From Verrucomicrobiota bacterium (lineage in GTDB: Bacteria > Verrucomicrobiota > Verrucomicrobiia > Verrucomicrobiales > DEV007): DNA of 64,000 nucleotides. A program made the translations under genes and the position numbers. Within the stretch, counting starts at the first letter, position 1. Each line of letters opens with the position of its first letter. This document shows positions 1-24,556 of this stretch, piece after piece. The stretch spans positions 1 through 64,000 of the forward strand of contig JASFYY010000048.1 in NCBI GenBank assembly GCA_045046875.1, given 5' to 3'. Below the pieces are notes generated by a model. The model did no database searches, was not told the DNA's origin, and was given only the letters and a program-made list of their open reading frames with translations.

Positions 1-96
1 CGTTGTCGTCATCGTTGTCGTCATCGTTGTCGTCATCGTTGTCGTCATCGTTGTCGTCATCGTTGTCGTCATCGTTGTCGTCATCGTTGTCGTCAT
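1..96. repeat. Perfect 12-bp tandem repeat (CGTTGTCGTCAT)x8 or more, encoding DDDN on the minus strand
   Basis: Eight exact copies read directly; probably continues beyond the window edge. Confidence 0.97.
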
Positions 97-652
97 CGTC
101 GTCAGCAACATAAGTCGCGCCACGATCAATGATCCAGCCAATGTTTGGCTGCACGCCTTCACGATAAACGATTTGATCGGTTACCAGCTCACCAGTGATT
201 CCTGAATCACCTTCGGTGTCGCTGTCGTCGTCACCGTCGTCGTCATCGTCGCCGTCGTCGTCGTCGTCGTCGTCGTCGTTATCATCATCGCCGTCGTCGT
301 CGTTATCGTCGTCGTTATCGTCGTCGTTATCGTCGTCGTTATCGTCGTCGTTATCTGCAGCAAAAGCGCCTTCGTAACCTTGCTTAGCCGCCATCAGCTT
401 TACGCCTACTTCTTCTTTTTTAGCAGGTCTGCTAGGTGGCAGGGATCCAGATTGTCCAATAGTTCTTCCGAGGTTGTGTGTATCAACGAAAGAATCACCG
501 CCCACCTGATATCCACTATTGAATACAGATTTGGATGCATATAAATCGGTCACGTCTTGTCCGGGCTCAATCACCCTGGACACGGCCTGACTTGGCAAAA
601 TAGAAATAGCGAATATCGCCATTCCTACCATTAACTTTGTCGTTATTTTCAT
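1..652 (-). CDS. Secreted Asp-rich (DDDN)n repeat protein, 3'-partial (runs off the window start)
   Basis: Manual translation from ATG at 652: MKITTKLMVGMAIFAISILPSQA (Sec-like signal), about 75 aa unique, an about 45-aa D/N/G tract, TGELVTDQIVYREGVQPNIGWIIDRG, then (DDDN)n to base 1 with no stop. Absent from the ORF track because no stop falls in the window. Confidence 0.85.
   Translation of the reverse strand, partial: MKITTKLMVGMAIFAISILPSQAVSRVIEPGQDVTDLYASKSVFNSGYQVGGDSFVDTHNLGRTIGQSGSLPPSRPAKKEEVGVKLMAAKQGYEGAFAADNDDDNDDDNDDDNDDDNDDDGDDDNDDDDDDDDGDDDDDGDDDSDTEGDSGITGELVTDQIVYREGVQPNIGWIIDRGATYVADDDDDNDDDNDDDNDDDNDDDNDDDNDDDNDDDN
218..355. repeat. Asp-codon low-complexity tract including (CGTTATCGTCGT)x4.5
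   Basis: Copies at 301-354 plus degenerate TCG/TCA runs; minus strand reads DNDDDNDDD...DDGDDDSD. Confidence 0.93.
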
Positions 653-1320
653 TGTTGTTATTTTTGTCTTTCTTGGTTGTCTTCTTTTTCTTTCCGTCTC
701 GGTCAAATTCTCTCTGCGCTCCCCTCAATCATCCAAAAGAAGCTTTGTTCGTTTCGAACAAAAGCTTTCCAGGGAATAATTTTGATGTTTCACAAGGTCG
801 GGGTTCATCGTTTTTAACAAATTTTTCAATAAAGATATAAATTCTGGCCTAAAGAGCCTGTATAGCCGCCTGCCCTTCTATTTGATCGAGAATATCGATT
901 GAGTTTTTCAAGACAAGCTTTTTTTGCACTTTTTTTAAGAAAGTTTCCAATTTCACCCCTTTTTTAAGACCGTTTGGCTTTAAATCCCCATTAAAGAAGA
1001 AAGTTCCCAATTTGAACACTTGGAAAGGAGTTTGATTCATGGGGGCTTTTTCAATCACTAAAAGACAGATTATTAAGGCCTGAAATTAAATACAAGCCTT
1101 TTTTGCATTTTTTTATGTTTTTTTTGCTATATCCCCCTCAGGACTATTGTTATTGAGATGGATTACCCTGAAAATCCGGTTCCCGATGATCCATTCGGCT
1201 TGCTGCCCAGCCCCCGCCTCAAGCGATTAAAGTCACAGGATTCGTTTTTTGCTTGTATTCCAAACGACTTTCCCAACAGTCTATCCTCAACACACGCAAA
1301 AGCAGCTGCTCCATCTCTCT

Positions 1321-2478
1321 ATGAAATTTCTCAAAAACCTCTTCAAATCAAAACCAAAAATTTACTGTGATCGTAAGGCTGAATGTGCCGCCAAGGCTTT
1401 CAAACTACAAGAACTGCCCTTGAATCACGATGCCAACAAAGCTGAGATGCTATGGATCAGAAAAGGTTACCGCGCGCTGATGCCGCTGCTTGCCCCCAAC
1501 CAACTGATCAACCACTTCCCCAATGAGGGAGCTGTTATCAACAAGGGTTATCTCACCCAGACCCTGAAAGCCTATCAGGAACTCGGCGAAGACAAGGAGG
1601 TCAGCATCGACGACCTCTACCCTGAGAGTTATTGCCTCTACGAGCCGGAAGATCGCAAACGCTTTTTTGATCAACTGCCAAAAGTCGACAGCCGGGATAA
1701 TATCTGGATATACAAACCAGGCAACAACTCCCGTGGCAGAGGTATCGAAATCATGTGGCGCACCGGAAAGCTAAGAAAAAAATATGGCAATCTGAAAGAC
1801 CAATTTATTTCCAGCAAGGACGAACAGGGTATTATCCAGCGCTACATAAAAAACCCGATGCTGCTGAACGAGCGGAAATCGGAGATCCGGGTGTATTGGT
1901 TACTGGCCAGCCTGAACCCTCTCAGGGTATTACTCTTTGATGAAGGAACCGTGCGACTGAACTCCCTGCCCTACCAGCTCGATCAGTTCGACAATCAACT
2001 GATCCACGTCACCAATGTCTACCAACAATACAAACACCCTGACTTCGACCCCAGCGTGGTTCTGAAATGGTCTTTTGCCGAGCTTGACCGTTACCTTCTT
2101 GCGCAAAAAAAAGTAACGGATGAGCATTTCACCAAGAACATCTTGATGCCCAAATTGAAAAAATACCTGGCTTTTGTCGCAAAAGCCGGGCGCAAGGGAT
2201 TTAATAAAAAATACCCCGAACAAGGAGAATGTTTCGGAGTCTATGGTGCCGATGTGATCCTCGATGACCAGCTGAACCCCAACATCAGCGAAATCCAAAA
2301 AGGACCAGGGCTGAGCTTCAGCGATCCGATCAAAAAGAACATCATTCCTCCTATGTTGGGAGAAGCTGCACGGATCATGTTCGAGATCCGCGAAGCACGC
2401 ATCAATAACAAACCTTTACCCGATCTCAAAAACAGGGATCGCTATCAATGGGTCATCAATGAAGCAGCAAATTTATGA
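1321..2478 (+). CDS. Tubulin-tyrosine ligase/TTLL-like ATP-grasp ligase
   Basis: TTL-family motifs in the correct order: INHFPNEGAVINKGYL, YPESYCL, WIYKPGNNSRGRGI, IIQRYIKNPMLL, RKSEIRVY, EGTVR, HVTN, FGVYGADVILDDQLNPNISEIQKGP. ATG 1321 preferred over TTG 1249. No signal peptide seen. Confidence 0.85.
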   Translation: MKFLKNLFKSKPKIYCDRKAECAAKAFKLQELPLNHDANKAEMLWIRKGYRALMPLLAPNQLINHFPNEGAVINKGYLTQTLKAYQELGEDKEVSIDDLYPESYCLYEPEDRKRFFDQLPKVDSRDNIWIYKPGNNSRGRGIEIMWRTGKLRKKYGNLKDQFISSKDEQGIIQRYIKNPMLLNERKSEIRVYWLLASLNPLRVLLFDEGTVRLNSLPYQLDQFDNQLIHVTNVYQQYKHPDFDPSVVLKWSFAELDRYLLAQKKVTDEHFTKNILMPKLKKYLAFVAKAGRKGFNKKYPEQGECFGVYGADVILDDQLNPNISEIQKGPGLSFSDPIKKNIIPPMLGEAARIMFEIREARINNKPLPDLKNRDRYQWVINEAANL

Positions 2479-2481
2479 GTC

Positions 2482-2510
2482 TCGACAAGCTCAAACAAAA
2501 AGTGTAGCGT
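2482..2510 (+). promoter_or_regulatory. Possible sigma70-type promoter upstream of pepM
   Basis: TCGACA-N17-TAGCGT in the 83-nt gap between the TTL-like gene and pepM. Confidence 0.3.
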
Positions 2511-2561
2511 CACACCCAGCAATCTGCTAAAAGAAAACCAACCCCACTTCCAACCATACAC

Positions 2562-3467
2562 GTGAGCCAATCAACTACTTCCTCCTCATCCTCCCCCGGC
2601 GGGTTAAAAAAACTTCTACTCTCTCCGGAATTAGAGTTTTTAATGGAGGCTCACAGTGGTCTCAGTGCAAAAATCGTAGAAGAGGCTGGTTTCAAAGGCA
2701 TCTGGGCCAGCGGACTGGCCATATCGGCGACATTGGGAGTGCGCGACTGCAACGAAGCCAGTTGGACGCAGGTTCTGGATGCCGTCGAATTCATGCGGGA
2801 TGCCTCGACCCTGCCTATCTTGCTCGACGGGGACTCCGGATTCGGTGATTTTAATATTGTGCGGCGCTTGATCCTCAAATTGGAGCAGCGAGGAATAAAC
2901 GGGGTCTGTATAGAAGACAAACTCTACCCCAAAAGAAACTCCTTTATAGAATGCGATCAAACGGTTTGTGACGCAGATGCCTTCACCGGAAAAATCAAAG
3001 CCGCCAAAGACACTCAGAAAGATAATGACTTCTGTGTGGTCGCCCGTTTGGAGGGTTTTATCGTTGGCTTGCCATTTGAACAAGTCATGGAACGCGCCCA
3101 CATGTATGCTGATGCCGGGGCGGACGCCATTCTGGTACACAGCAAAAGAACCGATGCGGAACAAATCCTGGCTTTCACTGACATCTGGGATCGCCCCACG
3201 CCGCTGGTGGTGGTACCAACCACTTATAATAGCACTCCGACTGAAGTATTTGCGAAGGCCGGGGTGAGTCTGGCGATCTGGGCCAACCACAACTTGCGAA
3301 CTTCGATCACCGCGATGCAGGACACCTGCCGCCAAATATACGAAGCGCAATCTACTCTCAAGGCATCGGAAAACATCGCATCGGTGAAGGAAGTCTTTCG
3401 TTTGACCGATATGGAGGAACTGGCCGCTGCCGAGAAACATTACCTCTCAGGATCCGGCGCTGAATAA
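2562..3467 (+). CDS. pepM: Phosphoenolpyruvate mutase
   Basis: Diagnostic EDK-X5-NS motif (EDKLYPKRNS), plus EAHSGLSA, GIWASG, DGDSGFG and WANHNLR; followed by ppd. Confidence 0.97.
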   Translation: MSQSTTSSSSSPGGLKKLLLSPELEFLMEAHSGLSAKIVEEAGFKGIWASGLAISATLGVRDCNEASWTQVLDAVEFMRDASTLPILLDGDSGFGDFNIVRRLILKLEQRGINGVCIEDKLYPKRNSFIECDQTVCDADAFTGKIKAAKDTQKDNDFCVVARLEGFIVGLPFEQVMERAHMYADAGADAILVHSKRTDAEQILAFTDIWDRPTPLVVVPTTYNSTPTEVFAKAGVSLAIWANHNLRTSITAMQDTCRQIYEAQSTLKASENIASVKEVFRLTDMEELAAAEKHYLSGSGAE

Positions 3468-3494
3468 AAACCAAAACCTCTAGCTTCCCGGGCC

Positions 3495-4655
3495 ATGATC
3501 CAATCCTCGTCGTTCCTCGAGCCCATGTCTGCCCTCGGGTATTCATTTTATTCAGGTGTTCCCTGTTCATTTCTGAAGCCCTTCATCAACTCGGTCATCA
3601 ATTCGGAAAGCTTGACCTATGTCGGAGCGGCCAGTGAAGGTGAAGCCGTAGGCATCACATTGGGAGGCTATCTGGCTGGGGAAAAAACGGTGACCATGTG
3701 CCAGAATTCAGGCTTGGGAAACACGGTGAACCCACTGAGTTCTCTTAATTCTCCTTTCAAAATCCCCACCCTACTGATCACCACTTGGCGCGGCGAACCG
3801 GGGCTGCAAGATGAACCCCAGCACGAATTGATGGGACAAATCACCCACCAACTGCTCGACACCCTGCAAATCCCCTGGCTCCCTTTCCCTGATACAAAAG
3901 AAAAAATCCCGGAGGTCATCGAAGAAGCCGATGCCTACATGAATGAGCAACAACTGCCATTTGCCCTGGTTTTAAGTAAAGGAGTGGTCGAAAGCTGCCC
4001 GCTGGACCCACAAAAAAGCTGCCCTCCAGTGGACTGCCACCAACACATCCAGGCCTTTTCCCCGTCTCAAAACCAACTGACCCGCACCCAGGCGATTGAA
4101 CAAATTCTGCAACAGGGCTCGCTGACTGATGCGATCATTGCCACCACAGGGAAAACCGGACGCGAGCTGTTCACCGTCGATGATCGCGACAGCAACCTTT
4201 ACGTCGTGGGCGGCATGGGTACCGCTGCAGCGATCGGACTGGGGATCAATCTGGTACTGCCCGAGCAGCGAGTGATCGTTCTCGATGGCGATGGTGCCGC
4301 CTTGATGAAACTGGGTGCACTGGCCACCATTGGGAACCGGCAGCCCGAAAACCTGCTCCACATCATCCTCGACAACGAAGTCCATGACTCCACCGGGGGA
4401 CAGGCAACCGTTTCGCCCACCACTCAGTTTGCCGCGATTGCCGCCGCTGCAAATTATAAAAATGTCTACACCGCACAGAACCAACAGCAACTGAATGACT
4501 GTCTGGCTGACGAAAAACAACGCCAGGGTCCCAGTTTACTGCACCTCAAAATACGCCCCGGCTCGCCCGAAAAACTCGGCCGGCCGACAATCAAACCTCC
4601 CCAGGTGAAAGAGCGTTTTATGGATTTTTTAGCGTCCATGTCCACCCCTCGCTGA
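3495..4655 (+). CDS. ppd: Phosphonopyruvate decarboxylase (TPP-dependent)
   Basis: GVPCSFLK, EGEAVG, QNSGLGN, RGEPGLQDEPQH, TTGKTGRELF, DGDGAALM...DNEVHDSTGGQ; 27 nt after pepM. Confidence 0.96.
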   Translation: MIQSSSFLEPMSALGYSFYSGVPCSFLKPFINSVINSESLTYVGAASEGEAVGITLGGYLAGEKTVTMCQNSGLGNTVNPLSSLNSPFKIPTLLITTWRGEPGLQDEPQHELMGQITHQLLDTLQIPWLPFPDTKEKIPEVIEEADAYMNEQQLPFALVLSKGVVESCPLDPQKSCPPVDCHQHIQAFSPSQNQLTRTQAIEQILQQGSLTDAIIATTGKTGRELFTVDDRDSNLYVVGGMGTAAAIGLGINLVLPEQRVIVLDGDGAALMKLGALATIGNRQPENLLHIILDNEVHDSTGGQATVSPTTQFAAIAAAANYKNVYTAQNQQQLNDCLADEKQRQGPSLLHLKIRPGSPEKLGRPTIKPPQVKERFMDFLASMSTPR

Positions 4656-4656
4656 T

Positions 4657-5784
4657 ATGCCAAAGCCAGAGCGTAAATGTTTGTTCACCCCGGGGCCACT
4701 CAACACCAGTGATGCCGTGCGCCAGGCGATGTTACTGGATAAGGGCTCGCGAGAACCGGCCTTTATCCAAAGTGTAAAAAACGTCCGCCAAAACATTCTG
4801 AAAATAACGGATCTCGATCCAGACGGACTTTACACTGTCGTCCCGATGCAAGGCAGCGGAACTTTTTCCATCGAAGCCGCCATCGGCACATTCACCGCAA
4901 AAAATGCAAAACTCCTGATCCTGGTGAACGGGGCTTACGGCAGACGCATGGTGAGCATCGCCGAGCACTTGGGCATCGACGTGCAAAGCCTCGAATTTGA
5001 AGAAACCGAGGCCATTTGCCCGCTAAAAGTAGCTGCTCATCTAAAGCTCCATCCCGACATCAGCTTGGTCGCGACCGTTCATTGTGAAACCACCACCGGC
5101 ATAATGAACCCTCTCGAAAAACTAGGCGAAGTGACCGCCGCTGCGAGTGCCCTCTTCATGGTCGATGCCATGAGCAGTTTTGGCGGTATCAAAATCGATT
5201 TCAGCAAATGCCGGATTGATTGCCTGGTCTCCTCCGCCAACAAATGCCTGGAAAGTGTGCCGGGCTTGGGATTTGTCATCGCAAAAAAAACACTTTTGCA
5301 ATCAGCGCAAGGACAAGCCAGAAGCCTGAGCTTTGATCTCCACGCCCAATGGCAGGGCCTGGAAAACAACGGCCAATTCAGATTCACCCCACCCACCCAT
5401 GTCATTCTGGCTTTGGAAAAAGCACTCGAAGTTTTGACTCACGAAGGCGGCATCGAAGCTCGCTCTGAACGTTATCACAACAATCGCCGAATATTAATGT
5501 CAGGCATGACCCGTCTCGGGTTCAGACCTGTCATCGAAGACCGTTTGCAAAGCCCTGTCATCGCCACCTTTCACCACCCCAAAGACTCTCGTTTTAAATT
5601 TACGCCTTTTTATCAATGGCTGGCCGAGCGCGACTTGATCATTTATCCAGGCAAGGTGAGCCGCATCGACAGTTTCCGTATAGGAACCATTGGCGATCTG
5701 CAGTCGCAGGATTTCCATCACCTGCTGGAAAGCATCGAAGAATACCTGAAGCTCACAGGGATTGATTTGCCGTTGAAAAATTAG
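4657..5784 (+). CDS. aepZ: 2-aminoethylphosphonate aminotransferase (AepZ/PhnW family, class V PLP)
   Basis: LFTPGPLNTS, QGSGT, NGAYGRRM, HCETTTG, DAMSSFG, SSANKC, QFRFTPPTH, IYPGK; 1 nt after ppd, so the biosynthetic direction is likely. Confidence 0.93.
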   Translation: MPKPERKCLFTPGPLNTSDAVRQAMLLDKGSREPAFIQSVKNVRQNILKITDLDPDGLYTVVPMQGSGTFSIEAAIGTFTAKNAKLLILVNGAYGRRMVSIAEHLGIDVQSLEFEETEAICPLKVAAHLKLHPDISLVATVHCETTTGIMNPLEKLGEVTAAASALFMVDAMSSFGGIKIDFSKCRIDCLVSSANKCLESVPGLGFVIAKKTLLQSAQGQARSLSFDLHAQWQGLENNGQFRFTPPTHVILALEKALEVLTHEGGIEARSERYHNNRRILMSGMTRLGFRPVIEDRLQSPVIATFHHPKDSRFKFTPFYQWLAERDLIIYPGKVSRIDSFRIGTIGDLQSQDFHHLLESIEEYLKLTGIDLPLKN

Positions 5785-5876
5785 GCTGGCCAGCCAATAG
5801 TCTTTCGAAAACGACACGGTTCTGCTGAGCCCGGAAAAACAAACTGCGTCCATCCCCCTCAAATCGCAATCCAATC

Positions 5877-6464
5877 ATGGCACAAAACCCTCCAGTTAAA
5901 AAAAACTCTTCCCGCAAGCGTTGGATTCAATTTCACGCCTACCTCTCCGTTTTCTTTTTCCCCTTTGCCATTGCCTACACCCTCACCGGCGCACTCTATA
6001 TCTGGGGGGATTTGCCCACCCTCGACAAAACCAATCTGACCCTCTACGATCTGGAACCCAAATCCCCCGCGACTCTTGAGAAGGTCGAAGAGCTCATCCG
6101 GGAGCAGTGCGAAAAAAACCAATGGCCTCTTCCCTCCGGGGAAATCAGAAAAGATGGCAAGGAGTTCAAATGGGGCTCGACCAAAACCCATCAGGTCAAA
6201 TACAAAGCTTCTCGCTCCACCCAAGGCAAAGCCTATCTCACCTACCTCAAAGCCACCCTCTACGGCAGGGTGCTGAACTTTCACAAGGGCAAAGGTGGAA
6301 AATTTCTCGACGTGCTGGGCACGGCCTTCGCTCTTTTGCTGCTCGTATCCTACCTTTCAGGAGTTTACCTCGCCTTCAAATCTTCTGGACTGCGCAACAA
6401 TACGATCATCGCTTTCATTTTAGGCTTTGTGACTCTCACCCTCGCCATTTATTCAGGGTTTTAG
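5877..6464 (+). CDS. PepSY-associated TM-helix membrane protein
   Basis: WIQFHAYLSVFFFP...LTG N-terminal helix, LNFHKGK, then two more TM helices ending LSGVY. Confidence 0.6.
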   Translation: MAQNPPVKKNSSRKRWIQFHAYLSVFFFPFAIAYTLTGALYIWGDLPTLDKTNLTLYDLEPKSPATLEKVEELIREQCEKNQWPLPSGEIRKDGKEFKWGSTKTHQVKYKASRSTQGKAYLTYLKATLYGRVLNFHKGKGGKFLDVLGTAFALLLLVSYLSGVYLAFKSSGLRNNTIIAFILGFVTLTLAIYSGF

Positions 6465-6548
6465 TTTTTGCTACTCAAAAACCCCGCTGATTAAAAACGA
6501 CGCACCCTGCCCAAGCATCTCAGATTTTCTACCTACTCCAGCGGATCG

Positions 6549-6986
6549 CTATTTTTTGCTTTTTTTGCTGCCGGTATTGTCCATGAATACCTTGGCCCCG
6601 GCCAAACCCAGCACACCAATGATGATGATTTGACGGCCTCGCACCCGTTGTCCGGTTTTTGCTCCGTGAATGATCATCGCCAGGAATACCAGCGCCATCA
6701 CAATCATTCCAATTCCGATAACCGCCTTGAGTTTGTTCGTAGTCGCTTTTTTCACCTCGATCTCATTCTGCTCTTCCACACGATCAAAGATCAAGACATA
6801 ATCTGCCGAAAATGTTCCTTCCGTGCCAAGCTTGCGAATGTCCTGCTCCTGGGTAATCTCACCCGTTCCGACCAAGCCCTCTATTTCTTCAAAAGTATAA
6901 GGCCCCTTATCCGGACGGATCACTGCATCGTCGTCATTTTCATCTTCATATTCATCTTCGTCGTAAACGATTTCGTAAATTTTCAT
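6549..6986 (-). CDS. Membrane protein with GYF_2 (DUF4339)-like domain and acidic N-terminus
   Basis: GPYTFEEIEGLVGTGEIT motif, two C-terminal TM segments, N-terminal YDEDEYEDENDDD. Confidence 0.6.
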   Translation of the reverse strand: MKIYEIVYDEDEYEDENDDDAVIRPDKGPYTFEEIEGLVGTGEITQEQDIRKLGTEGTFSADYVLIFDRVEEQNEIEVKKATTNKLKAVIGIGMIVMALVFLAMIIHGAKTGQRVRGRQIIIIGVLGLAGAKVFMDNTGSKKSKK

Positions 6987-7199
6987 GAGCCCGGAGTTTC
7001 AAGTGTCCCCAGAATCAGTCATAACCAAACTCTATTCATTCGTCAACCACATTGAATACGGAATCCAGATCATCCAACCTTCAAGACGACAAGCCATACC
7101 CCCAGCCATACGCTCAAGTATGAAAAACCACCGTATGAAAAACCGCCTCCCCCGGAAGCAACATGCCCTGATCAATCTTTTTATGCTGTAAATGAAAAA

Positions 7200-9329
7200 T
7201 CAATCATCGTCATCGTCAGAATCATCTTCATCATCGCCATCCCCTAAACCACCACCACCACCACCACCGTTAGCAGCGATAGTAACCGCTGTTCCCTGGA
7301 TTTCCTCAATCGTTACCAACCAAGTCATGCGATTGATGGGAGGCAACTCAGCAGGACTAACGATCTGAGACAAATCCGCGCTTATCTTGTTAGCAGAAAT
7401 AGCTTGCCCCGCTACGGTTAAATTAGCTCCCCCCTTGAGATCTAAAGGATTAACCACCGTGCCATCGTCCGCATTTAAACTGGTAATTTGTCCCGACATC
7501 GAAATAGCATCAATAGCTCCATCTACTGTCCCAAAATGTTTGTGCGACGCAAACACGGACACCGGCGGATAGTAGTCTCCGCTTGGCAAACCCGCATTAT
7601 TCGGCACATCCGATGCCAATACTGGTTTTTGATTGAAGTTCTCGGCAAAATAAACTTTATAATCAGTGACAATCGACAGGCCTTTGGTAAAGATCGTTAA
7701 GTCCTCCGCCTGTCTAAAGACCACAGACATCTCCGCACTGTCGTCAATGAGACTGGGCAAAACAACCGATGGATCAGCCGAGGTGTCAGCTGAAATAGAG
7801 AGCGAATTATTCCGGGTAACGTCTCCAGGGCTTAAACCCATACCTGCTAAATAATCAGGTATTTCATCCAAGTTTACAGCCAAAGCCGGATGCCCGGTCG
7901 CTCCAAGATTTTCCCAGTAAAACGGCAATGATTGCGGACCATTAGCAGGAACATCATTTGCAAAATTGACCCAGGTTCCATCTGTAGACTTATAATTTTT
8001 AACCAGCGTTCCTGCTCCTTGTTGACAAGTGAAACGAATCTCAATTGGCCGCGATGTCTGCTGCTTAGTGACTTCCAGTTTCATCTTGCACTGCAAGGCA
8101 CCCATCGCGTATTCATACCAACCAGTGTCGGAAAGAGTGTTCGTTTGAGCTACCGCTCCGCTGGTGCGAATAAACTGATCTCCCTGACTGAGCGGCAGAA
8201 CCGCTACCCTGCCTGAATCACTCGCCACCGATGCTCCGTAAAAATCCGAACCACTTGAAGCCCACCGCGTTTCACGCGTCCCCAATCTATCAAAGCCCGC
8301 AGTAATCGACATCCCCCCCCCCACCGAATTTGTGCCATTCAATTTGACTGAACGCCTGGCGGAAACCCTTGAAGAAGCCCCTAACAAACTAAGGTTTTTT
8401 GCTTCCACTTCTCCAGCAAACACTCCCCCTCGAATAGTAGTATTCTGCCAATTAGTTCCATCTGCAAAAGTTCCCACTTGCAATTTTCCCGCGGCAGACA
8501 AAGCCATTTGCTCAGGCACCTCATAAATCGAGAGTATGTAGTTTTTTTTCATCGTAGGCATCGCATCCGGCCCTGTGCCCCCGCCTCCAAAAGTTAATGA
8601 AAAGGCCCACCAATTACGTTTAGCTACAAACTTGCCACTCTGGTTCGAAAGGCCAAAACGAATATCTGGATAATCAATGATGTTATACACAGGATAACCC
8701 GTCGTCGCATCTGCCGAAGCCCCTAACCCTGGCGTTGAAGAAGGGTACTTTTTATTTAGAGAAATGATCGGATATTCCAGCTCATTAGAATAGCTGCCAG
8801 AGTAAGCTAAAGGGGGGGGAAGCTTTCCTCCTGTCAACCCGTCGGCCAGCAAACCGGTATTCGAAACATTACCAGGCCCCATCAACGAACCATCTCCCGC
8901 AACAACTCCCACAATTTGATTCGTAGAAGACAAATTCATATCCCCTGTATTTGCGTTAATAATACCCGATATACCAAAACCGTCGACTACAGCTGAATTT
9001 AAAGCCCCTCCGGCATTGGACAAAGTGATCGCATCAGTGAAAATTTGATCCCAGGAATAATTGGAAGCATTGCCTGCCGAATTTGGCATCATCGCGCCAA
9101 TCGCTTTATTTGGGACAACGTAAACCAAGGCCCTCAGCAGCGCGTCCTCTTTCTGCCGGTAATCAATCTTCACCTGGTTCATCACTTGCATTTCATGGGA
9201 ACGCATCCCCGTTCGAAACACAAACATCAAACTGAGCAATGCTGTAACTCCAATCACAGCCACCATGGCCATGGCCGCGTAACCCCGTGAATGCCCTCTA
9301 AAAAATGATCCCCTGACTTTTAACTTCAT
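7200..9329 (-). CDS. Large PilX/GspK-like prepilin-type protein with Gly linker and poly-Asp C-terminal tail
   Basis: Basic leader then G|YAAMAMVAVIGVTALLSLMFVF (no E5, as in PilX-type minor pilins); ends GGGGGGGLGDGDDEDDSDDDDD; ATGA overlap with the upstream gene. Confidence 0.7.
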   Translation of the reverse strand: MKLKVRGSFFRGHSRGYAAMAMVAVIGVTALLSLMFVFRTGMRSHEMQVMNQVKIDYRQKEDALLRALVYVVPNKAIGAMMPNSAGNASNYSWDQIFTDAITLSNAGGALNSAVVDGFGISGIINANTGDMNLSSTNQIVGVVAGDGSLMGPGNVSNTGLLADGLTGGKLPPPLAYSGSYSNELEYPIISLNKKYPSSTPGLGASADATTGYPVYNIIDYPDIRFGLSNQSGKFVAKRNWWAFSLTFGGGGTGPDAMPTMKKNYILSIYEVPEQMALSAAGKLQVGTFADGTNWQNTTIRGGVFAGEVEAKNLSLLGASSRVSARRSVKLNGTNSVGGGMSITAGFDRLGTRETRWASSGSDFYGASVASDSGRVAVLPLSQGDQFIRTSGAVAQTNTLSDTGWYEYAMGALQCKMKLEVTKQQTSRPIEIRFTCQQGAGTLVKNYKSTDGTWVNFANDVPANGPQSLPFYWENLGATGHPALAVNLDEIPDYLAGMGLSPGDVTRNNSLSISADTSADPSVVLPSLIDDSAEMSVVFRQAEDLTIFTKGLSIVTDYKVYFAENFNQKPVLASDVPNNAGLPSGDYYPPVSVFASHKHFGTVDGAIDAISMSGQITSLNADDGTVVNPLDLKGGANLTVAGQAISANKISADLSQIVSPAELPPINRMTWLVTIEEIQGTAVTIAANGGGGGGGLGDGDDEDDSDDDDD

Positions 9330-9922
9330 TCTCCTGTTCCTCCATAGGTAACCTGTTCACCATTCGGCCCGGTCAAGGTTACCAGTAGTATTCCGGTGTC
9401 GTCAGCAAAAGTCACAGTGCTCGCCTGTTGAGTGATCGTCCAATTCGGTGTCACGTTCCAAGCCCCATCAAAACTATAAAAATTCAACTTGGCTTCACCT
9501 GCCACAACTTCAAACGCCACAATCCCCTCATCATAACTCCCATCAGGGCTGCGAAAACTCAGACGCACAGCTTTGCCGTCGACATTAATACTTCCGGTAT
9601 TCGCTTTTGCGTTACCCACGGAAGAATAGATCCGGTAAGAATTTGCCTTACCAAAGATGCCGGTCAGCATATTATTAACCTGGGGGGCATCATCACGTAA
9701 AAAAGTATACGATTGCAATATTCTCATGAAGGTCACGTGAGACTGCAACATCATGATCAAAGCAGCCGCCAGCAGCATCAACATAGCCATCACCATTGAT
9801 ATTTCCACCAAGGTGAATGCGCCCATACGTTCCTTCCTAACAGTCACACCGCTATCACCTTGCCGACCGGCTAATGGCCTTAGTCGCCTTGCCTTTCTAC
9901 GACTGTGTTCCAGCAGTCTCAT
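9326..9922 (-). CDS. Prepilin-type N-terminal methylation domain protein (pseudopilin)
   Basis: Basic leader, A|FTLVEISMVMAMLMLLAAALIMML with E at +5; ATGA overlaps on both sides. Confidence 0.8.
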   Translation of the reverse strand: MRLLEHSRRKARRLRPLAGRQGDSGVTVRKERMGAFTLVEISMVMAMLMLLAAALIMMLQSHVTFMRILQSYTFLRDDAPQVNNMLTGIFGKANSYRIYSSVGNAKANTGSINVDGKAVRLSFRSPDGSYDEGIVAFEVVAGEAKLNFYSFDGAWNVTPNWTITQQASTVTFADDTGILLVTLTGPNGEQVTYGGTGE

Positions 9923-10413
9923 CGTGCTCTCAGAATAGTTCTGGATTTGATATAATCCCTGCCTGAAATTTTATAAGTCAGGTAAGACTGTAATTGATAC
10001 GCCTGCGAACTTGTGGGATTTGATGCCAACGTCCCCGTCCCCCCGTTAGCTGGAAGGTTGTTCGAAGCGGGGATCCGTGTGCGCCGCAGTGATCCGGTGA
10101 TTGCCCGCCCTCCTGGCAAAGAGCCTATCGTAACACCTGATACACTCACTGCTGGATAAGCTGGAAATAACGATCCTGCTGCCAAAAATCCATCTCCACC
10201 CTCAAAAGGCAAGCGTTTACCTAACGCCACCTCCCTGCTCATATACGCATCGGAGACTCCTTGTATCACCGTCCAGCGTTGCACACTGGTTACGGTCAGA
10301 GCTGACTTCAACAACAGTAGACTAACGACCAACATCGCCCCAAAACCGGCTGCCACCTCTATCAATACAGAGGCCCGGATTTGGACTTGGCGATGTGCGC
10401 TATCAACCTTCAT
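9919..10413 (-). CDS. Pseudopilin-like protein
   Basis: IRA|SVLIEVAAGFGAMLVVSLLLL with E5 and a hydrophobic helix; coupled to the next gene. Confidence 0.65.
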   Translation of the reverse strand: MKVDSAHRQVQIRASVLIEVAAGFGAMLVVSLLLLKSALTVTSVQRWTVIQGVSDAYMSREVALGKRLPFEGGDGFLAAGSLFPAYPAVSVSGVTIGSLPGGRAITGSLRRTRIPASNNLPANGGTGTLASNPTSSQAYQLQSYLTYKISGRDYIKSRTILRAR

Positions 10414-10472
10414 GAACGTTTACCTAAAACTCTACTTAATTCCTATTTGGAATAGATCTCTGGTCAGGTTTT

Positions 10473-11630
10473 TTATTTAGCTCCAATTTGCCCTTTAACG
10501 CTTAAAGAACGATTCAGAGTGAATTTGATAACAGCCAGTCTTTCACTGCCCCCATTGGTGAAATCTGCAGGCATGTCTGAAGCAATGATTTCAAGCGTGT
10601 ATACGCCACTCCCTCCCTGCTCAAAAAATGGCTGCAAATACGACTCTTTAATGGTAATGCCATCAGCAGAATAAATCGTTTTAGTATCCTGTGGTTCCAC
10701 AGCACCTTCCGCATTCAACATGGTGACAGGCACCACCCCGCCTACGGTGCCCAATGAAGGCTCTCCCTTATAAATTTGCACGTAGGTTTTGGAATTTGGA
10801 TAAACCGAAGTGTAATGGACAAAAATGTCGCGCACTCTATCATTAAACACCTGCCCCTCGGCAAAGGGTTCCTGACCGCCATCATCAGCTTGCTGCCTGA
10901 ACAATCCTGTTCCTACTGGAAATATTTTCACAATAGCTGATCCTACGTTCCACCGAGCTGAAACCGTTTCATCGGCATAAGAACGCATCTCAAACTTTTC
11001 TTCACCGTTCCTCAAGGTGATATCACTGGCGAAACCAGGCAAGCTGGGTCCGGTATAACTAAATGTGTCACTTCCAGTGAACACCAATGACTGCAGAGTC
11101 TGCTGGTTTTCCTGTTCCACCAAATAGCCTCCTGTAGTGGCCGGTGTTGCCAAATGTAAAAAATTCACCTCACGGGCTGCTCGCGGAGCAGTCAGATCGG
11201 TTAGCAAATTTGACACGGTGCCCGTTACGGTAAAAGGCTGATCTGCCCGAGTGCGATAAACCGGACGTTGCACGGTTTTTCCGCTCACTTGATCCGTCAC
11301 AGAACCAATCCAATCCTTGTCTTTGACATCAACATTAAAAACCCCCTTGGGCATATAAAGCCCAATCACCTTACTATCGACAAGGGTTTTGGTGCCCGCA
11401 TCATCGCCCTCTCCATCTGCCCACAATTCGAACAAAGCCCCTGTCCCCTCAATCGGAGCAGCCACCTGTTGTGAACCGGTATCGCCAAGATTATACATAA
11501 ACTGCACCGGCAAACCCGGATCCAAAGGAATCTGGCGAATCTCATTTGCCACCTCAGCATGTGCTGACATGCTAACTGCTGTCACAAAAGTTGCTAATAT
11601 TCCGGCTATGCCCATTTTTCTTATTTTCAT
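10473..11630 (-). CDS. Secreted hypothetical protein (beta-rich)
   Basis: Start reassigned to MKIRKMGIAGILATFVTAVSMSAHA (signal peptide, AxA) after an A-rich leader. Confidence 0.75.
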   Translation of the reverse strand: MKIRKMGIAGILATFVTAVSMSAHAEVANEIRQIPLDPGLPVQFMYNLGDTGSQQVAAPIEGTGALFELWADGEGDDAGTKTLVDSKVIGLYMPKGVFNVDVKDKDWIGSVTDQVSGKTVQRPVYRTRADQPFTVTGTVSNLLTDLTAPRAAREVNFLHLATPATTGGYLVEQENQQTLQSLVFTGSDTFSYTGPSLPGFASDITLRNGEEKFEMRSYADETVSARWNVGSAIVKIFPVGTGLFRQQADDGGQEPFAEGQVFNDRVRDIFVHYTSVYPNSKTYVQIYKGEPSLGTVGGVVPVTMLNAEGAVEPQDTKTIYSADGITIKESYLQPFFEQGGSGVYTLEIIASDMPADFTNGGSERLAVIKFTLNRSLSVKGQIGAK

Positions 11631-11703
11631 CTTATTATATTTTAGTTTTGTAGTTATCAACCAACCGCCTCTTTTAAAATGTCTTGTCATAAGGATTAAA
11701 CCC

Positions 11704-12696
11704 CTATTTTCCGTTCCCCTTTCGCGCTCGCGAACCATCGGATGCCACCGATCCAGCTACCACGCCGTCCTCCTCCTCCAGCTTTGCTTCAATTACCGAA
11801 ATTGGATTTTTATTGAAAACGGCTACTACCACTTTGCCGCCAATCATGAATGCTTTTTTTTCCTTATCTGAAATAGGGTCCTCCCCTTTGGCCGTCTGCC
11901 AACTCACCTCTCTGGTTGTCACAAATCGTGCATATTTTTTTATAAACTCAGGCCAGATCAACAACGCCCCCTTGGGCTTTTTCACCACCATTGCCGCCAA
12001 TTTTGTCGGTAAATTGATAACCGCTCCCTCCGGCACAACCGTGTGCTCGTCCCCTGCCACTAGAATGGTCGTACCATCATAATAATCTCTCTTTTTAGCA
12101 ATCCCTTTCGATTTGAGATCTTTCTTCAAAGGATTCACCCCCGACCGTTGTTTTTTCAGCTTGTGTGAAGATGCCTCTTTGGACAAACGCTCTGTCAACT
12201 CTGCCGCAGTGATTCGATCTCCACCTGGAGCCACTCCCTTTATTCGCGTGGGATCAACAAACGCATCGCCCTTCATGCTAAAGCCAGCATCACCCGGCAT
12301 TTTTGTAAATGTTCGCCCCTCATTGCTATGGGGAAGCTTCTTGATAAATTCTCCCCACTTTGCATCCCGCTGTAGCTCATTACGATTCTCAGGAGTCATT
12401 TTCTCAGTAGCTACCCGAGTGTCCAAATCGGCCATTTTGTTTAACTCGGCAATTGCCAAATTGCGCTCTTCCAAAGAAATCTGTCCGTCTTTATTCCGAT
12501 CCTGTCGATTCAGAAAATCAACCGCTTTGCCTTTTTCCAAGCCCGTAAGCGATCCATCCAAACTGGAATCGAACTTTCGGATCAAAAGCTTCTTAAATAG
12601 CCCCTCGCCTCCAACCCCTGCATCTTGAGCAAAAAGATCTCCTGCACCTCCGTAGGATATAACGATCAAAACCAATCCACAAAATAGATATTTCAT
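11704..12696 (-). CDS. Secreted protein with an EF-hand-like pair
   Basis: MKYLFCGLVLIVIS signal; DSSLDGSLTGLE and DRNKDGQISLEE loops. Confidence 0.65.
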   Translation of the reverse strand: MKYLFCGLVLIVISYGGAGDLFAQDAGVGGEGLFKKLLIRKFDSSLDGSLTGLEKGKAVDFLNRQDRNKDGQISLEERNLAIAELNKMADLDTRVATEKMTPENRNELQRDAKWGEFIKKLPHSNEGRTFTKMPGDAGFSMKGDAFVDPTRIKGVAPGGDRITAAELTERLSKEASSHKLKKQRSGVNPLKKDLKSKGIAKKRDYYDGTTILVAGDEHTVVPEGAVINLPTKLAAMVVKKPKGALLIWPEFIKKYARFVTTREVSWQTAKGEDPISDKEKKAFMIGGKVVVAVFNKNPISVIEAKLEEEDGVVAGSVASDGSRARKGNGK

Positions 12697-12797: not shown

Positions 12798-13451
12798 TTA
12801 TTGTTCGCCACGATCAATCACCCAGCTTATAACAGGCTGAGCACCTTCCTGGTAAACGATTTGCCCAGTAAGCAACTCCCCTGTTGGCTCTGGTTTATCT
12901 TTGATCAATGTACCAAGGATCTTCATATAACCATCTATATCCCTAGAGTTAGAGTCTATGATCCATTTCAGCTTAACGTTTTTGTTTTCAAACACTTTAG
13001 GAGTTCCCCTCAGCGAAGTTTGCACAGCCCCTTGATAACCTACCGCTGAAGTAGCAAAATATATAGATCCGCCATTCACCCATCCGCTTCCGTCATTGGC
13101 CTTACCTTTAAAGTTCCACTTTCCAACTTCCGAACACTGAAACACTCCAAATCCTCTTTCACTTGCATAAGCTTCTGAAAAAGTCTGCATGTGCCCGCCC
13201 CATGTATACCAACCAGGAACCCCATCAGCGTCAGCCAAAGCTTCTACGCCAATTAAGCTGAATCGATAAACTCCACCAAGATTAACTGTCTTAGTATATC
13301 TATCTGTAGTATTTTTATTTGCATCTGGAAGCGCGCTACTTGGCATGGTCGTCGAAACTCCAGGACCAAGCAATTGCAGCTCTGCCCGACTTGTTCCAAC
13401 AGACACCGCCAATACCCCCAGACCTATCATCAGTTTTTGTCTTATATTCAT
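12798..13451 (-). CDS. Secreted hypothetical protein, first gene of the pseudopilin cassette
   Basis: MNIRQKLMIGLGVLAVSVGTSRA signal; C-terminal TGELLTGQIVYQEGAQPVISWVIDRG motif shared with the 1..652 protein. Confidence 0.8.
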   Translation of the reverse strand: MNIRQKLMIGLGVLAVSVGTSRAELQLLGPGVSTTMPSSALPDANKNTTDRYTKTVNLGGVYRFSLIGVEALADADGVPGWYTWGGHMQTFSEAYASERGFGVFQCSEVGKWNFKGKANDGSGWVNGGSIYFATSAVGYQGAVQTSLRGTPKVFENKNVKLKWIIDSNSRDIDGYMKILGTLIKDKPEPTGELLTGQIVYQEGAQPVISWVIDRGEQ

Positions 13452-13990
13452 CGTTTTTATTTTTTTGGTTATCACTTATCTCTCCGCTTCATTTAAATTC
13501 TTCAAACCCAATTTCACAATCAACTCAACTCATCACTCCCACACATGAGATCTAAATTTATTATTTCAATTATTAGGACTCTTTCATGAGTTAGCAGATA
13601 ACCCACCACCTCTTACTCATTACTTTTTTAGCTAGAGCGCTTTTTTTTCACAAGATTTTTTGCACCTATTTTGCATTTTAAATCAATCTTGTTTTATTAA
13701 ACGACATTTCATTATTAGCCCGCTCACTCCCCCCCTATTTATCCATCAATGTTTCATAAATAGGCCACGCCTTATCTAGCCTTATAAAATAACCAATCCC
13801 ACCTGCACCCACCCGGGCACCTCATAATCCCATGCCCCCCCACATCTTTAGACCAAGGCTTCACAAACCCTCAAATCCCTGCATCACCGCAAAAAAACGC
13901 CTGCCTGTAGCGAATCCGAGCAGGATCCACGCCTACAGCCTTGATATATAAAGGCTGCATCCCTTCTCCCCACCTTAATGATCTGCAAAG

Positions 13991-19133: not shown

Positions 19134-19152
19134 AGGATCAGGTGGTGCTGGT

Positions 19153-24447: not shown

Positions 24448-24493
24448 GAGCCGCAGCCTCCCCTTCTACTAGGCTACCCCTCCCTCTTATATT

Positions 24494-24524
24494 ATTCGTG
24501 TTGATTAGTGTCCATTAGCGGTTC
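24494..24524 (+). repeat. ATTCGTG-type intergenic repeat copy
   Basis: ATTCGTGTTGATTAGTGTCCATTAGCGGTTC; close match to 34587-34617. Confidence 0.75.
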
Positions 24525-24556
24525 TCTACATTCCTTCATCCAATTCACCCCCAACA

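What the first reader, a model, noticed from the sequence alone, without database searches (positions are those of the whole stretch)
1321..5784. TTL/TTLL-like ligase heading a minimal AEP phosphonate operon: candidate protein 'AEPylation' system
Seen: a gene carrying the TTL-family motifs lies 83 nt upstream of, and co-oriented with, pepM-ppd-aepZ. Established: these three enzymes make 2-aminoethylphosphonate, a primary amine and the phosphonate analogue of taurine/beta-alanine. TTL/TTLL enzymes use ATP to ligate amino-acid amines onto carboxylates of acidic, disordered protein tails. Inference: the ligase may amide-link AEP to Asp/Glu carboxylates of the acidic proteins encoded on both sides (1..652, 7200..9329, 6549..6986), a phosphonate protein modification I do not know to be described. 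Alternative: it joins AEP to an amino acid to make a phosphonopeptide, as ATP-grasp ligases do in rhizocticin-type pathways.
Basis: partly seen in the sequence, partly recalled or inferred. Interest (0 to 1): 0.92.

Follow-up and report, generated by a model that had tools for sequence, protein, structure and literature searches.

The report
TTL-like ligase wired to phosphonate synthesis
A bacterial relative of the enzymes that decorate tubulin tails sits in front of the three genes that make 2-aminoethylphosphonate, is fused to each of those enzymes in other microbes, and often lies beside genes for exported proteins with long aspartate runs, which points to an undescribed way of attaching a phosphonate to proteins.

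Summary
Window 1321-2478 encodes a 385-aa PF03133 (TTL) protein, 83 nt upstream of and co-oriented with pepM, ppd and aepZ, all three above NCBIfam cut-offs.

The link to 2-aminoethylphosphonate (AEP) is not chance.
- AEP genes lie within 4 kb of the ligase in 13 of 79 dereplicated lineages, in at least four gene orders.
- Single metagenomic proteins fuse this ligase to PepM, to Ppd and to a degenerate AepZ-like domain.
- Ligase-linked PepMs lack the nucleotidyltransferase that is fused to PepM elsewhere.

A second link emerged. Genes for proteins with signal-peptide-like N-termini and poly-Asp tracts lie within 1 kb of the ligase in 7 of 79 lineages. In this genome the only strong poly-Asp ORF is the ligase's divergent neighbour. 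A specific SET methyltransferase is fused or adjacent in 4 of 79.

Best reading (0.45): the ligase amide-links AEP to carboxylates of exported Asp-rich proteins.

Against this:
- 22 of 38 ligase genomes show no PepM.
- No residue separates linked from unlinked enzymes.
- The ligase looks cytoplasmic while the candidate substrates are exported.
- There is no biochemistry.

Rivals are a small phosphonopeptide, glycan amidation, or an indirect link. I found no description in the papers searched.

The parts
2..652 (-). Asp-rich protein, candidate substrate. It is cut by the contig start. It has a signal-peptide-like N-terminus MKITTKLMVGMAIFAISILPSQA, about 100 aa, a (DDDN/DDDG)n tract, a 45-aa module (GITGELVTDQIVYREGVQPNIGWIIDRG) and a second (DDDN)n tract. 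It is divergent from the ligase gene.
   Evidence: One search gives the ORF. It is the only ORF of 22,101 (>=80 aa) in the 5.59-Mb assembly with >=70% D/E in 30 aa. All 10 genome matches to the DDDxDDDxDDDxDDD codon pattern lie at C48:5-349. A paralogue at 12798-13475 shares the N-terminus and the module. The relative's copy ends ...DDDDDDNDDDDAS. The signal peptide was judged by eye; no predictor was run.
1321..2478 (+). TTL-family ATP-grasp ligase (385 aa, core only), first gene of the cluster
   Evidence: PF03133 at E 4e-46. The profile against PDB sequences gives TTLL3 5vlq at 6.6e-44, TTLL6 at 2e-38 and TTL at 1.4e-33. The AF2 model has pLDDT 92.4. Foldseek gives TTLL6 6vzt at E 1.2e-24, TM 0.72. 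It is the only TTL gene in the genome.
2562..3467 (+). PEP mutase (PepM), unfused (301 aa)
   Evidence: TIGR02320 at 347.5 bits, above the cut-off. The only Pfam domain is PEP_mutase. It is single copy in the genome.
3495..4655 (+). Phosphonopyruvate decarboxylase (Ppd)
   Evidence: TIGR03297 at 430.9 bits, above the cut-off.
4657..5784 (+). 2-aminoethylphosphonate aminotransferase (AepZ/PhnW)
   Evidence: TIGR03301 at 445 bits and NF010006 at 467 bits, both above their cut-offs.
5877..6464 (+). PepSY_TM membrane protein, co-oriented 92 nt after aepZ. Membership in the system is uncertain.
   Evidence: PF03929 at E 3.5e-9. Among the loci it is conserved only in the 98%-identical relative L002.
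6549..6986 (-). Small membrane protein with an acidic N-terminus (YDEDEYEDENDDD).
   Evidence: ORF. No Pfam family. A homologue was found only in L002.
7200..9329 (-). 709-aa protein with an N-terminal hydrophobic anchor and a C-terminal tail GGGGGGGLGDGDDEDDSDDDDD. It is a second candidate substrate.
   Evidence: ORF. It is one of 5 ORFs in the genome with >=10 D in 20 aa. Analogous tails are a pseudopilin with a C-terminal D12 tail 3.2 kb from the ligase in L035 and a TadG-like protein with (DDDK)n in the Nitrosomonas MAG.
12798..13475 (-). Paralogue of the 2..652 protein without poly-Asp tracts. It supports that ORF as a real gene.
   Evidence: tblastn at 73% identity over 26 aa, E 5e-6. 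Translation.

Best explanation
The four genes 1321-5784 form one unit. PepM, Ppd and AepZ make free 2-aminoethylphosphonate (AEP) in the cytoplasm. The TTL-family ATP-grasp ligase activates a carboxylate as an acyl phosphate and lets the AEP amine attack it, forming an amide. In these clusters the ligase replaces the cytidylyl/nucleotidyl activation step that normally follows AEP synthesis. The most likely acceptors are Asp side chains, or the C-terminal carboxylate, of Asp-rich tracts in exported proteins encoded beside the ligase. Here these are the (DDDN)n protein at 2..652 and possibly the Asp-tailed protein at 7200-9329. The proteins would be modified before export. Where the repeat is DDDK, a partner SET methyltransferase may methylate the lysines.

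Shown: the enzyme families, the gene order, the recurrent linkage, the fusions and the poly-Asp neighbours.

Inferred: AEP as the nucleophile, protein Asp as the acceptor, timing before export, and the role of SET.
For: (1) Family and fold. PF03133 at 158 bits. The model has pLDDT 92.4 and aligns to TTLL6, TTL and TTLL11 over the full length with TM about 0.7. ATP-grasp motifs align with TTLL3 and TTLL6. To my recollection, every characterised member of this family ligates an amine to a protein carboxylate in an acidic tract.

(2) Linkage to AEP genes. They are adjacent in 7 of 38 genome loci and 6 of 80 metagenome contigs, which is 13 of 79 lineages after dereplication at 90%. Four gene orders occur: TTL-pepM-ppd-aepZ; pepM-ppd-[SET-TTL]-aepZ (L044); divergent (L011, L015, L031, L061); and aepZ-TTL (L054). 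On the tree the linkage needs at least 4-5 changes.

(3) PepM is enriched in ligase genomes. 11 of 38 are over the cut-off and 5 more score 273-299 bits, against 24 of 400 ligase-negative genomes of the same phylum.

(4) Fusions. P0138 is TTL+PepM (39% identical to the window ligase). P0133 is Ppd+TTL (37% identical; Ppd at 318.8 bits, above the cut-off). P0121 is TTL plus an AepZ-like domain without the PLP lysine (TIGR03301, E 3.5e-18).

(5) No nucleotidyltransferase. 4 of 4 unlinked PepMs examined in ligase-bearing genomes carry NTP_transf_3. 4 of 4 PepMs sampled from ligase-negative genomes of the phylum carry CTP_transf_like. Neither domain gives a tblastn hit in any of the 118 ligase loci, and G000 gives only weak generic hits on other contigs.

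(6) Poly-Asp neighbours. ORFs with >=12 D in 20 aa lie within 1 kb of the ligase in 7 of 79 lineages and within 10 kb in 10 of 79. Several have signal-peptide, lipobox or pilin-like N-termini. In L047 and L046 a (DDDK)n gene is co-oriented directly upstream of TTL-pepM-ppd-aepZ. The DDDx codon pattern occurs in 13 of 39 ligase genomes, and in 6 of 8 with a linked pepM, usually at one locus per genome. It occurs in 22 of 400 ligase-negative genomes of the phylum.

(7) Protein-modifying partner. An orthologous SET subfamily (52-56% identical to each other) is fused to the ligase (L044, P0004, P0009) or adjacent to it (L047, L004, L008 group).
Against: - 22 of 38 ligase-bearing genomes show no PepM, including three Thiotrichales isolate drafts. 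Ten of those 22 do have a PhnW/AepZ above the cut-off.
- No alignment column separates pepM-linked from unlinked ligases, either family-wide or within the mixed 10-member clade. There is therefore no sign of a specificity switch.
- The ligase has no signal peptide and needs ATP, yet the candidate substrates look exported (judged by eye).
- Poly-Asp genes are absent from 9 of 13 AEP-linked lineages within the DNA held. For L003 and L007 they lie elsewhere in the genome.
- One AEP-linked locus (L011) sits in a polysaccharide gene cluster.
- Each fusion protein is a single metagenomic gene call. P0121's extra domain found no second example.
- There are no expression or biochemical data.
Confidence: 0.45

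Rival explanations
1. The ligase joins AEP to a free amino acid or short peptide, for example X-AEP or gamma-Glu-AEP, making a small phosphonopeptide. The poly-Asp neighbours are unrelated surface proteins.
For: ATP-grasp ligases beside AEP cores are read this way in the phosphonate literature (PMC8942020, passages seen). Fusion of a tailoring enzyme to PepM or Ppd is typical of metabolic pathways. The conserved unit is just four genes. No specificity-determining residues were found.
Against: The window protein matches only PF03133 and none of the other ATP-grasp Pfam families at E<=0.01. No exporter or resistance gene recurs in the clusters. The SET fusions and adjacency and the poly-Asp neighbours point to protein substrates. 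To my recollection, no TTL-family enzyme is known to act on free amino acids.
Confidence: 0.2
2. The ligase amidates a carboxylate of a glycan or of the cell wall with AEP, for example a uronic acid. This would parallel C. jejuni Cj1438C, which amidates glucuronate with ethanolamine phosphate.
For: Cj1438C uses ATP to amidate GlcA with ethanolamine phosphate, a near-isostere of AEP (PMC12409886, passages seen). L011's ligase-AEP unit lies among Wzz, Wzy, Wzx, glycosyltransferase and pyruvyl-transferase genes, and L007 has three GT2 genes downstream.
Against: Glycan genes are near the ligase in only a few loci and none is in the window's first 12 kb. The enzyme family, the SET partner and the poly-Asp neighbours fit proteins better.
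Confidence: 0.12
3. The ligase adds an ordinary amino acid such as Glu, Gly or Asp to acidic proteins in all lineages. Its linkage to AEP genes reflects co-regulation of surface remodelling and not shared chemistry.
For: 22 of 38 ligase genomes lack PepM. No residue distinguishes linked from unlinked enzymes, and 50 positions are near-invariant across 34 sequences. The nearest solved relatives are glycylases and glutamylases.
Against: Three different fusions to AEP enzymes, and a ligase gene placed between ppd and aepZ, are hard to explain by co-regulation alone. Ligase-linked AEP clusters would then have no enzyme that uses AEP.
Confidence: 0.13
4. The ligase, with SET, is a eukaryote-like effector that acts on host or prey tubulin or histones.
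For: The family occurs in Chlamydiales and in Thiotrichales drafts that also carry a RasGEF-domain neighbour. SET plus TTL recalls the eukaryotic TTLL12 architecture (PMC3520985, abstract seen).
Against: Most carriers are Verrucomicrobiota, Nitrosomonas, Sorangium and Rhodobacteraceae. This reading gives no reason for the fusions to AEP enzymes or for the poly-Asp neighbours.
Confidence: 0.05

Closest known systems
Eukaryotic TTL/TTLL protein ligases (TTLL3 glycylase, TTLL6/7 glutamylases, TTL)
   Same: Same Pfam family, PF03133. Same three-domain ATP-grasp fold over the whole length (TM about 0.7). Aligned ATP-grasp motifs. The substrates of the known enzymes are acidic protein tracts, as proposed here.
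   Different: It is bacterial and core-only (385 aa), with no microtubule-binding extension. About 20% identical to TTLL6 in the structural alignment. The E-x-N metal motif reads E-I-Q and is invariant in the family. The predicted amine is a phosphonate and not an amino acid. The candidate substrates are Asp-rich, not Glu-rich, and exported.
Nucleotidyl activation of AEP (PntC/LicC-type cytidylyltransferases, often fused to PepM; PMC6697681, abstract and one passage seen)
   Same: It occupies the same genomic slot, fused to or beside PepM, and is the presumed consumer of AEP.
   Different: The chemistry differs completely: an ATP-grasp amide ligation versus CMP-AEP formation. The nucleotidyltransferase domain is missing from all ligase-linked clusters held.
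C. jejuni Cj1438C glucuronamide amidoligase
   Same: ATP-dependent amide bond between a carboxylate and ethanolamine phosphate, a near-isostere of AEP (PMC12409886, passages seen).
   Different: Its acceptor is a capsule sugar. Its sequence relation to the window protein was not tested here.
ATP-grasp ligases of phosphonopeptide clusters (Paenibacillaceae AEP clusters, phosphonoalamides; PMC8942020, passages seen)
   Same: An ATP-grasp enzyme beside an AEP or phosphonate core.
   Different: They belong to other ATP-grasp families and give small-molecule products. The main text of that inventory mentions neither 'tubulin' nor 'TTL'.
RimK (poly-glutamylation of ribosomal protein S6) and cyanophycin (Arg on poly-Asp side chains); both recalled, not tested
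   Same: Bacterial ATP-dependent addition of an amine to acidic protein tails (RimK) or to Asp beta-carboxylates of a poly-Asp chain (cyanophycin).
   Different: The window protein gives no RimK Pfam hit. Here the poly-Asp is ribosomally encoded and the amine is a phosphonate.

Membership tests
TTL/TTLL family (PF03133) | Profile match above the curated cut-off | tested here: met
   158 bits against a cut-off of 20.1, E 4.1e-46, covering profile positions 8-277 of 292.
TTL/TTLL family (PF03133) | TTL-type ATP-grasp fold | tested here: met
   AF2 model with pLDDT 92.4 and pTM 0.91. Foldseek top hits are TTLL6, TTL and TTLL11, E down to 1.2e-24, TM 0.65-0.73.
TTL/TTLL family (PF03133) | Conserved nucleotide, Mg and acyl-phosphate motifs | tested here: inconclusive
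   The WIxKP, GRGI, K-x-[DE]-x-R and GxD motifs align with TTLL3 and TTLL6 and are invariant in the family. The E-x-N motif is E-I-Q in all 34 sequences, and the effect of this is unknown.
TTL/TTLL family (PF03133) | Ligates an amino acid (Tyr, Glu, Gly) to a protein carboxylate | not testable with these tools
   Only context is available: poly-Asp neighbours, the SET partner and the AEP genes.
AEP biosynthesis core (PepM-Ppd-AepZ) | All three enzymes above the equivalog cut-offs, contiguous and co-oriented | tested here: met
   TIGR02320 at 347.5, TIGR03297 at 430.9 and TIGR03301 at 445 bits. Coordinates.
Nucleotidyl-activated phosphonate tailoring (PntC type) | Nucleotidyl/cytidylyltransferase fused to or beside PepM | tested here: not met
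   The window PepM has only the PEP_mutase domain. Neither domain type gives a tblastn hit in the 118 ligase loci. G000 gives only 25-38% identical generic hits on other contigs.
L-amino-acid-ligase or RimK-type ATP-grasp (phosphonopeptide ligases) | Match to those ATP-grasp Pfam families | tested here: not met
   PF03133 is the only family at E<=0.01 for the window protein. Some relatives show weak sub-threshold YheCD hits.
Cj1438C-type glucuronamide amidoligase | Sequence or fold relation to Cj1438C | not tested

The most novel reading that the evidence does not exclude
Ribosomally encoded (DDDx)n tracts of exported, pilus-associated or lipid-anchored proteins are converted residue by residue into N-(2-phosphonoethyl)asparagine by a bacterial TTL ligase. 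The ligase draws on its own AEP operon, and lysines of DDDK repeats are methylated by a partner SET enzyme. The product is a genetically templated phosphonate polyelectrolyte on the cell surface. This would be the first direct protein-phosphonate linkage, the first assigned function for bacterial TTL homologues, and a possible source of protein-bound phosphonate in nature.
Probability: 0.35. Interest if true: 0.95.

Novelty: new variant of a known kind. Interest (0 to 1): 0.85.

Why it matters
- Phosphonates are a large pool of marine organic phosphorus. In Prochlorococcus SB they were recovered in the high-molecular-weight protein fraction, and the linkage was only proposed to run through glycans (10.1101/2020.11.04.368217, passages seen). 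A ligase that puts AEP directly on protein carboxylates would give a second, testable route.
- It would give bacterial TTL homologues a function, to my knowledge for the first time.
- It would extend TTL chemistry to a non-amino-acid amine.
- It would define an alternative to nucleotidyl activation in phosphonate tailoring.
- A four-gene cassette plus a (DDDx)n tag could also be used to make phosphonate-rich, metal-binding proteins.

Tried and rejected
- Specificity-determining positions. No column separates pepM-linked from unlinked ligases, either family-wide (8 against 20) or inside the mixed clade (5 against 5).
- Ligase charge. pI ranges from 4.8 to 9.4 across 34 sequences. The enzymes with an immediate poly-Asp neighbour are basic (9.07-9.32), but those with looser adjacency are acidic (L028 at 4.8, L021 at 6.2). 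This is too weak to use.
- Promoter and terminator scan of 1-7200. Counts do not exceed shuffles. No + strand terminator-like site lies between TTL and pepM, which shows nothing either way.
- Expression. No RNA holder was listed.
- Complex prediction for ligase plus AepZ.
- A second example of P0121's AepZ-like domain. Only P0121 itself was returned.
- The 'longer' homologue search by words found only P0121. The other fusions came from the exhaustive profile search.
- The 'DDPDDP' ORFs after the ligase in L084, L087 and L088 were dropped. They are a 9-nt tandem repeat without a start codon inside a duplicated element.
- The single SET gene of G000 (C44) belongs to a different subfamily, about 30% identical to the ligase-partner SETs. 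The partner SET was not found in G002, G006, G010 or G014 with that query. The pairing of DDDK repeats with SET is therefore only partial.
- A shared motif before the poly-Asp tract (window GITGELVTDQI, Sorangium IDGELVQDIQ) was seen by eye only and not pursued.
- ESM Atlas for the paralogue at 12798-13475 gave scores of 0.83 and no family.
- Earlier findings of this scan returned nothing.
- Apart from the AEP genes, no neighbour family recurs widely around the ligase.
- Literature. Searches of the held library found no paper that links TTL-family genes with phosphonate genes or describes AEP amide-linked to protein. Subscription journals are largely outside that library.

Full report
WHAT IS THERE.
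- Window 1321-2478(+) is a 385-aa protein whose only Pfam match is PF03133 TTL (E 4.1e-46).
- After an 83-nt gap come PepM at 2562-3467 (TIGR02320, 347.5 bits), Ppd at 3495-4655 (TIGR03297, 430.9 bits) and AepZ/PhnW at 4657-5784 (TIGR03301, 445 bits). All three are above the curated cut-offs and co-oriented.
- A PepSY_TM gene follows at 5877-6464.
- The ligase is the only TTL gene in the 5.59-Mb assembly. pepM, ppd and aepZ are single copy.
- A profile of 34 homologues hits TTLL3 (6.6e-44), TTLL6/7 (about 1e-38) and TTL (1.4e-33) among solved structures, with the ATP-grasp motifs aligned.
- An AF2 model (pLDDT 92.4) superposes on TTLL6, TTL and TTLL11 over its whole length (TM about 0.7).
- One oddity: the E-x-N metal motif reads E-I-Q and is invariant in the family.

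THE FAMILY. The word-based search returned 157 relatives, nearly all unnamed, down to 41% identity among the 120 listed. Two are fused to a SET domain. A pattern scan of one genome per species gave 38 loci from Verrucomicrobiota, Nitrosomonas, Rhodobacteraceae, Sorangium, Thiotrichales, Chlamydiales, Planctomycetota and others. The family is rare: 0 of 400 other genomes sampled from the window's phylum have it.

LINK TO AEP SYNTHESIS.
- tblastn with the window's enzymes finds pepM-ppd-aepZ directly beside the ligase in 7 of 38 genome loci and AEP genes in 6 of 80 metagenome contigs, many of them only 1-5 kb long.
- After merging loci with >=90% identical ligases, this is 13 of 79 lineages.
- The gene order varies. 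It is TTL-pepM-ppd-aepZ in the window, L002-L004, L007 and L045-L047. It is divergent in L011, L015, L031 and L061. It is aepZ-TTL in L054. In L044 a SET-TTL fusion gene lies between ppd and aepZ, 3 nt before aepZ.
- On a maximum-likelihood tree of 34 ligases, the linked ones fall in three places and need at least 4-5 changes. Four short fragments were dropped, and L013, L038 and L039 were not in the ORF cluster.
- No other neighbour family recurs comparably.
- Whole-genome searches show PepM over the cut-off in 11 of 38 ligase genomes, plus 5 at 273-299 bits. The figure is 24 of 400 in ligase-negative genomes of the phylum.
- The exhaustive profile search uncovered single predicted proteins in which this ligase is fused to AEP enzymes. 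P0138 is TTL+PepM. P0133 is Ppd+TTL, with Ppd above its cut-off. These add to P0121, which is TTL plus a degenerate AepZ-like domain that has lost the PLP lysine.

THE LIGASE STANDS WHERE THE NUCLEOTIDYLTRANSFERASE USUALLY STANDS. In four ligase-bearing genomes where pepM is not linked to the ligase, PepM is fused to an NTP_transf_3 domain (4 of 4 examined). In four PepMs sampled from ligase-negative genomes of the phylum, it is fused to a CTP_transf_like domain (4 of 4). This matches the published predominance of nucleotidyl activation (PMC6697681, abstract seen). Ligase-linked PepMs are unfused. Neither transferase domain gives a tblastn hit in any of the 118 ligase loci, and G000 has only weak generic hits on other contigs. 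These clusters therefore encode no other enzyme that could use AEP.

LINK TO POLY-ASP PROTEINS.
- The ORF divergent from the ligase (2..652, cut by the contig start) has a signal-peptide-like N-terminus and two (DDDN)n tracts.
- It is the only ORF of 22,101 in the assembly with >=70% D/E in 30 aa.
- It holds all 10 genome matches to a DDDxDDDxDDDxDDD codon pattern.
- A paralogue without the tracts lies at 12798-13475. The relative's copy ends in an Asp tail.
- Non-homologous proteins of the same design lie beside the ligase elsewhere. L004 has a signal peptide plus (DDDK)n, divergent, 165 nt away. Sorangium L012/L013 have a lipobox plus (DDDDDH/R)n about 600 nt away. L046 and L047 have (DDDK)n co-oriented just upstream of TTL-pepM-ppd-aepZ. 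L066 has (DDDDDK)n. L059 has a D/G-rich C-terminal tail.
- Further away are L021 (PKD domain plus poly-Asp), L028 (C-terminal tail) and L035 (a pseudopilin with a D12 tail).
- Counted by lineage, the neighbour is within 1 kb in 7 of 79 and within 10 kb in 10 of 79. Four lineages have both AEP genes and poly-Asp.
- The codon pattern occurs in 13 of 39 ligase genomes, and in 6 of 8 with a linked pepM, usually at a single locus. In G000 and G003 that locus is the ligase's neighbour; in G020 it lies 6 kb away.
- It occurs in 22 of 400 ligase-negative genomes of the phylum, mostly pure poly-Asp within one family. These comparisons cross phyla and ignore relatedness, so I give no p-value.
- In the Nitrosomonas and Puniceicoccaceae MAGs the tract lies elsewhere, in a TadG-like pilus protein and in a PEP-CTERM protein.

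SET PARTNER. An orthologous SET subfamily (52-56% identical to each other) is fused N-terminally to the ligase (L044, P0004, P0009). It is convergent after aepZ in L047 and L004, and lies upstream in the L008 population. L047 and L004 carry DDDK repeats. The window has DDDN repeats and no partner SET. The pairing is not strict, because the partner SET was not found in the Nitrosomonas MAG.

READING. The linkage, the fusions and the missing transferase make it likely (I put it near 0.8) that the ligase consumes AEP. An ATP-grasp enzyme activates a carboxylate, so AEP would be the amine. The family's known chemistry, the SET partner and the poly-Asp neighbours favour protein Asp or a C-terminal carboxylate as the acceptor. 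The overall confidence for the full statement is 0.45.

AGAINST.
- 22 of 38 ligase genomes lack PepM, although 10 of these have a PhnW/AepZ above the cut-off.
- No residue distinguishes linked from unlinked ligases.
- The ligase looks cytoplasmic and the candidate substrates look exported (judged by eye; no predictor run).
- Most AEP-linked loci show no poly-Asp gene in the DNA held.
- L011 sits in a polysaccharide cluster.
- The fusions are single gene calls.

COMPARISON AND NOVELTY. The protein is a member of the TTL family by profile and by fold. Whether it shares the family's substrates cannot be tested here. It works like a TTLL, or like the Cj1438C amidoligase that joins ethanolamine phosphate to a carboxylate. 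It fills the slot of PntC. Four full-text searches and term searches in two phosphonate surveys found no description of a TTL-phosphonate link or of AEP amide-linked to protein. That library omits most subscription journals, and I did not open supplements. I rate it a new variant of a known kind: ATP-grasp protein ligation with a new amine, new substrates and a new genomic system.

Noticed in passing
L018:6954-9563: A Polyangiaceae MAG carries two tandem paralogues of the ligase (L018_5 and L018_6), sister to each other on the tree.
   Followed up: no
P0144 (701 aa): A relative has two TTL/ATP-grasp stretches in one protein (Pfam TTL 294.9 bits over 2 stretches, plus GSH-S_ATP and YheCD hits in the N-terminal part).
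   Followed up: no
L084:3300-4100, also L087 and L088: Directly after the ligase gene lies a 9-nt tandem repeat (GACCCCGAT)n inside a duplicated element of about 60 nt. It reads as 'DDPDDP' but has no start codon, so it is probably non-coding.
   Followed up: partly
L007:14553-21142: Downstream of the ligase-AEP unit, on the opposite strand, lie three GT2 glycosyltransferases, an ABC exporter, an NTP_transf_5 protein and a PqqD-like protein. This looks like a peptide- or glycan-modification cluster.
   Followed up: no
L003:1027-3900: In the Nitrosomonas MAG the gene upstream of the ligase encodes a 957-aa spermidine-synthase-like domain fused to TPR repeats. TadE/TadG-like pilus genes follow the AEP genes.
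   Followed up: no
L017:11996-13654: A PKMT-type protein lysine methyltransferase (PKMT_2nd and MethyTransf_Reg domains) lies downstream of the ligase in an Opitutales MAG. It is a second kind of lysine methyltransferase near this ligase.
   Followed up: no
window 17835-21555; L016:9345-13129: A DUF1552 (HXXSHH) gene paired with a DUF1592/DUF1588/cytochrome-like gene occurs 15 kb from the ligase in the window and immediately after it in L016. This may be coincidence in these phyla.
   Followed up: no
L126:1316-2035: The only DDDx-type tract in the Chlamydiales MAG, (DDDF)n, lies in a very acidic protein whose C-terminus looks like a FliN/SctQ (SpoA) domain. This was judged by eye.
   Followed up: no
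window 9326-11738: Three further genes on the minus strand next to the Asp-tailed 709-aa protein encode proteins with prepilin-like hydrophobic N-termini and no Pfam family. They may form a pseudopilus set with it.
   Followed up: no
window 22624-25963: Two adjacent sulfatase genes (PF00884).
   Followed up: no
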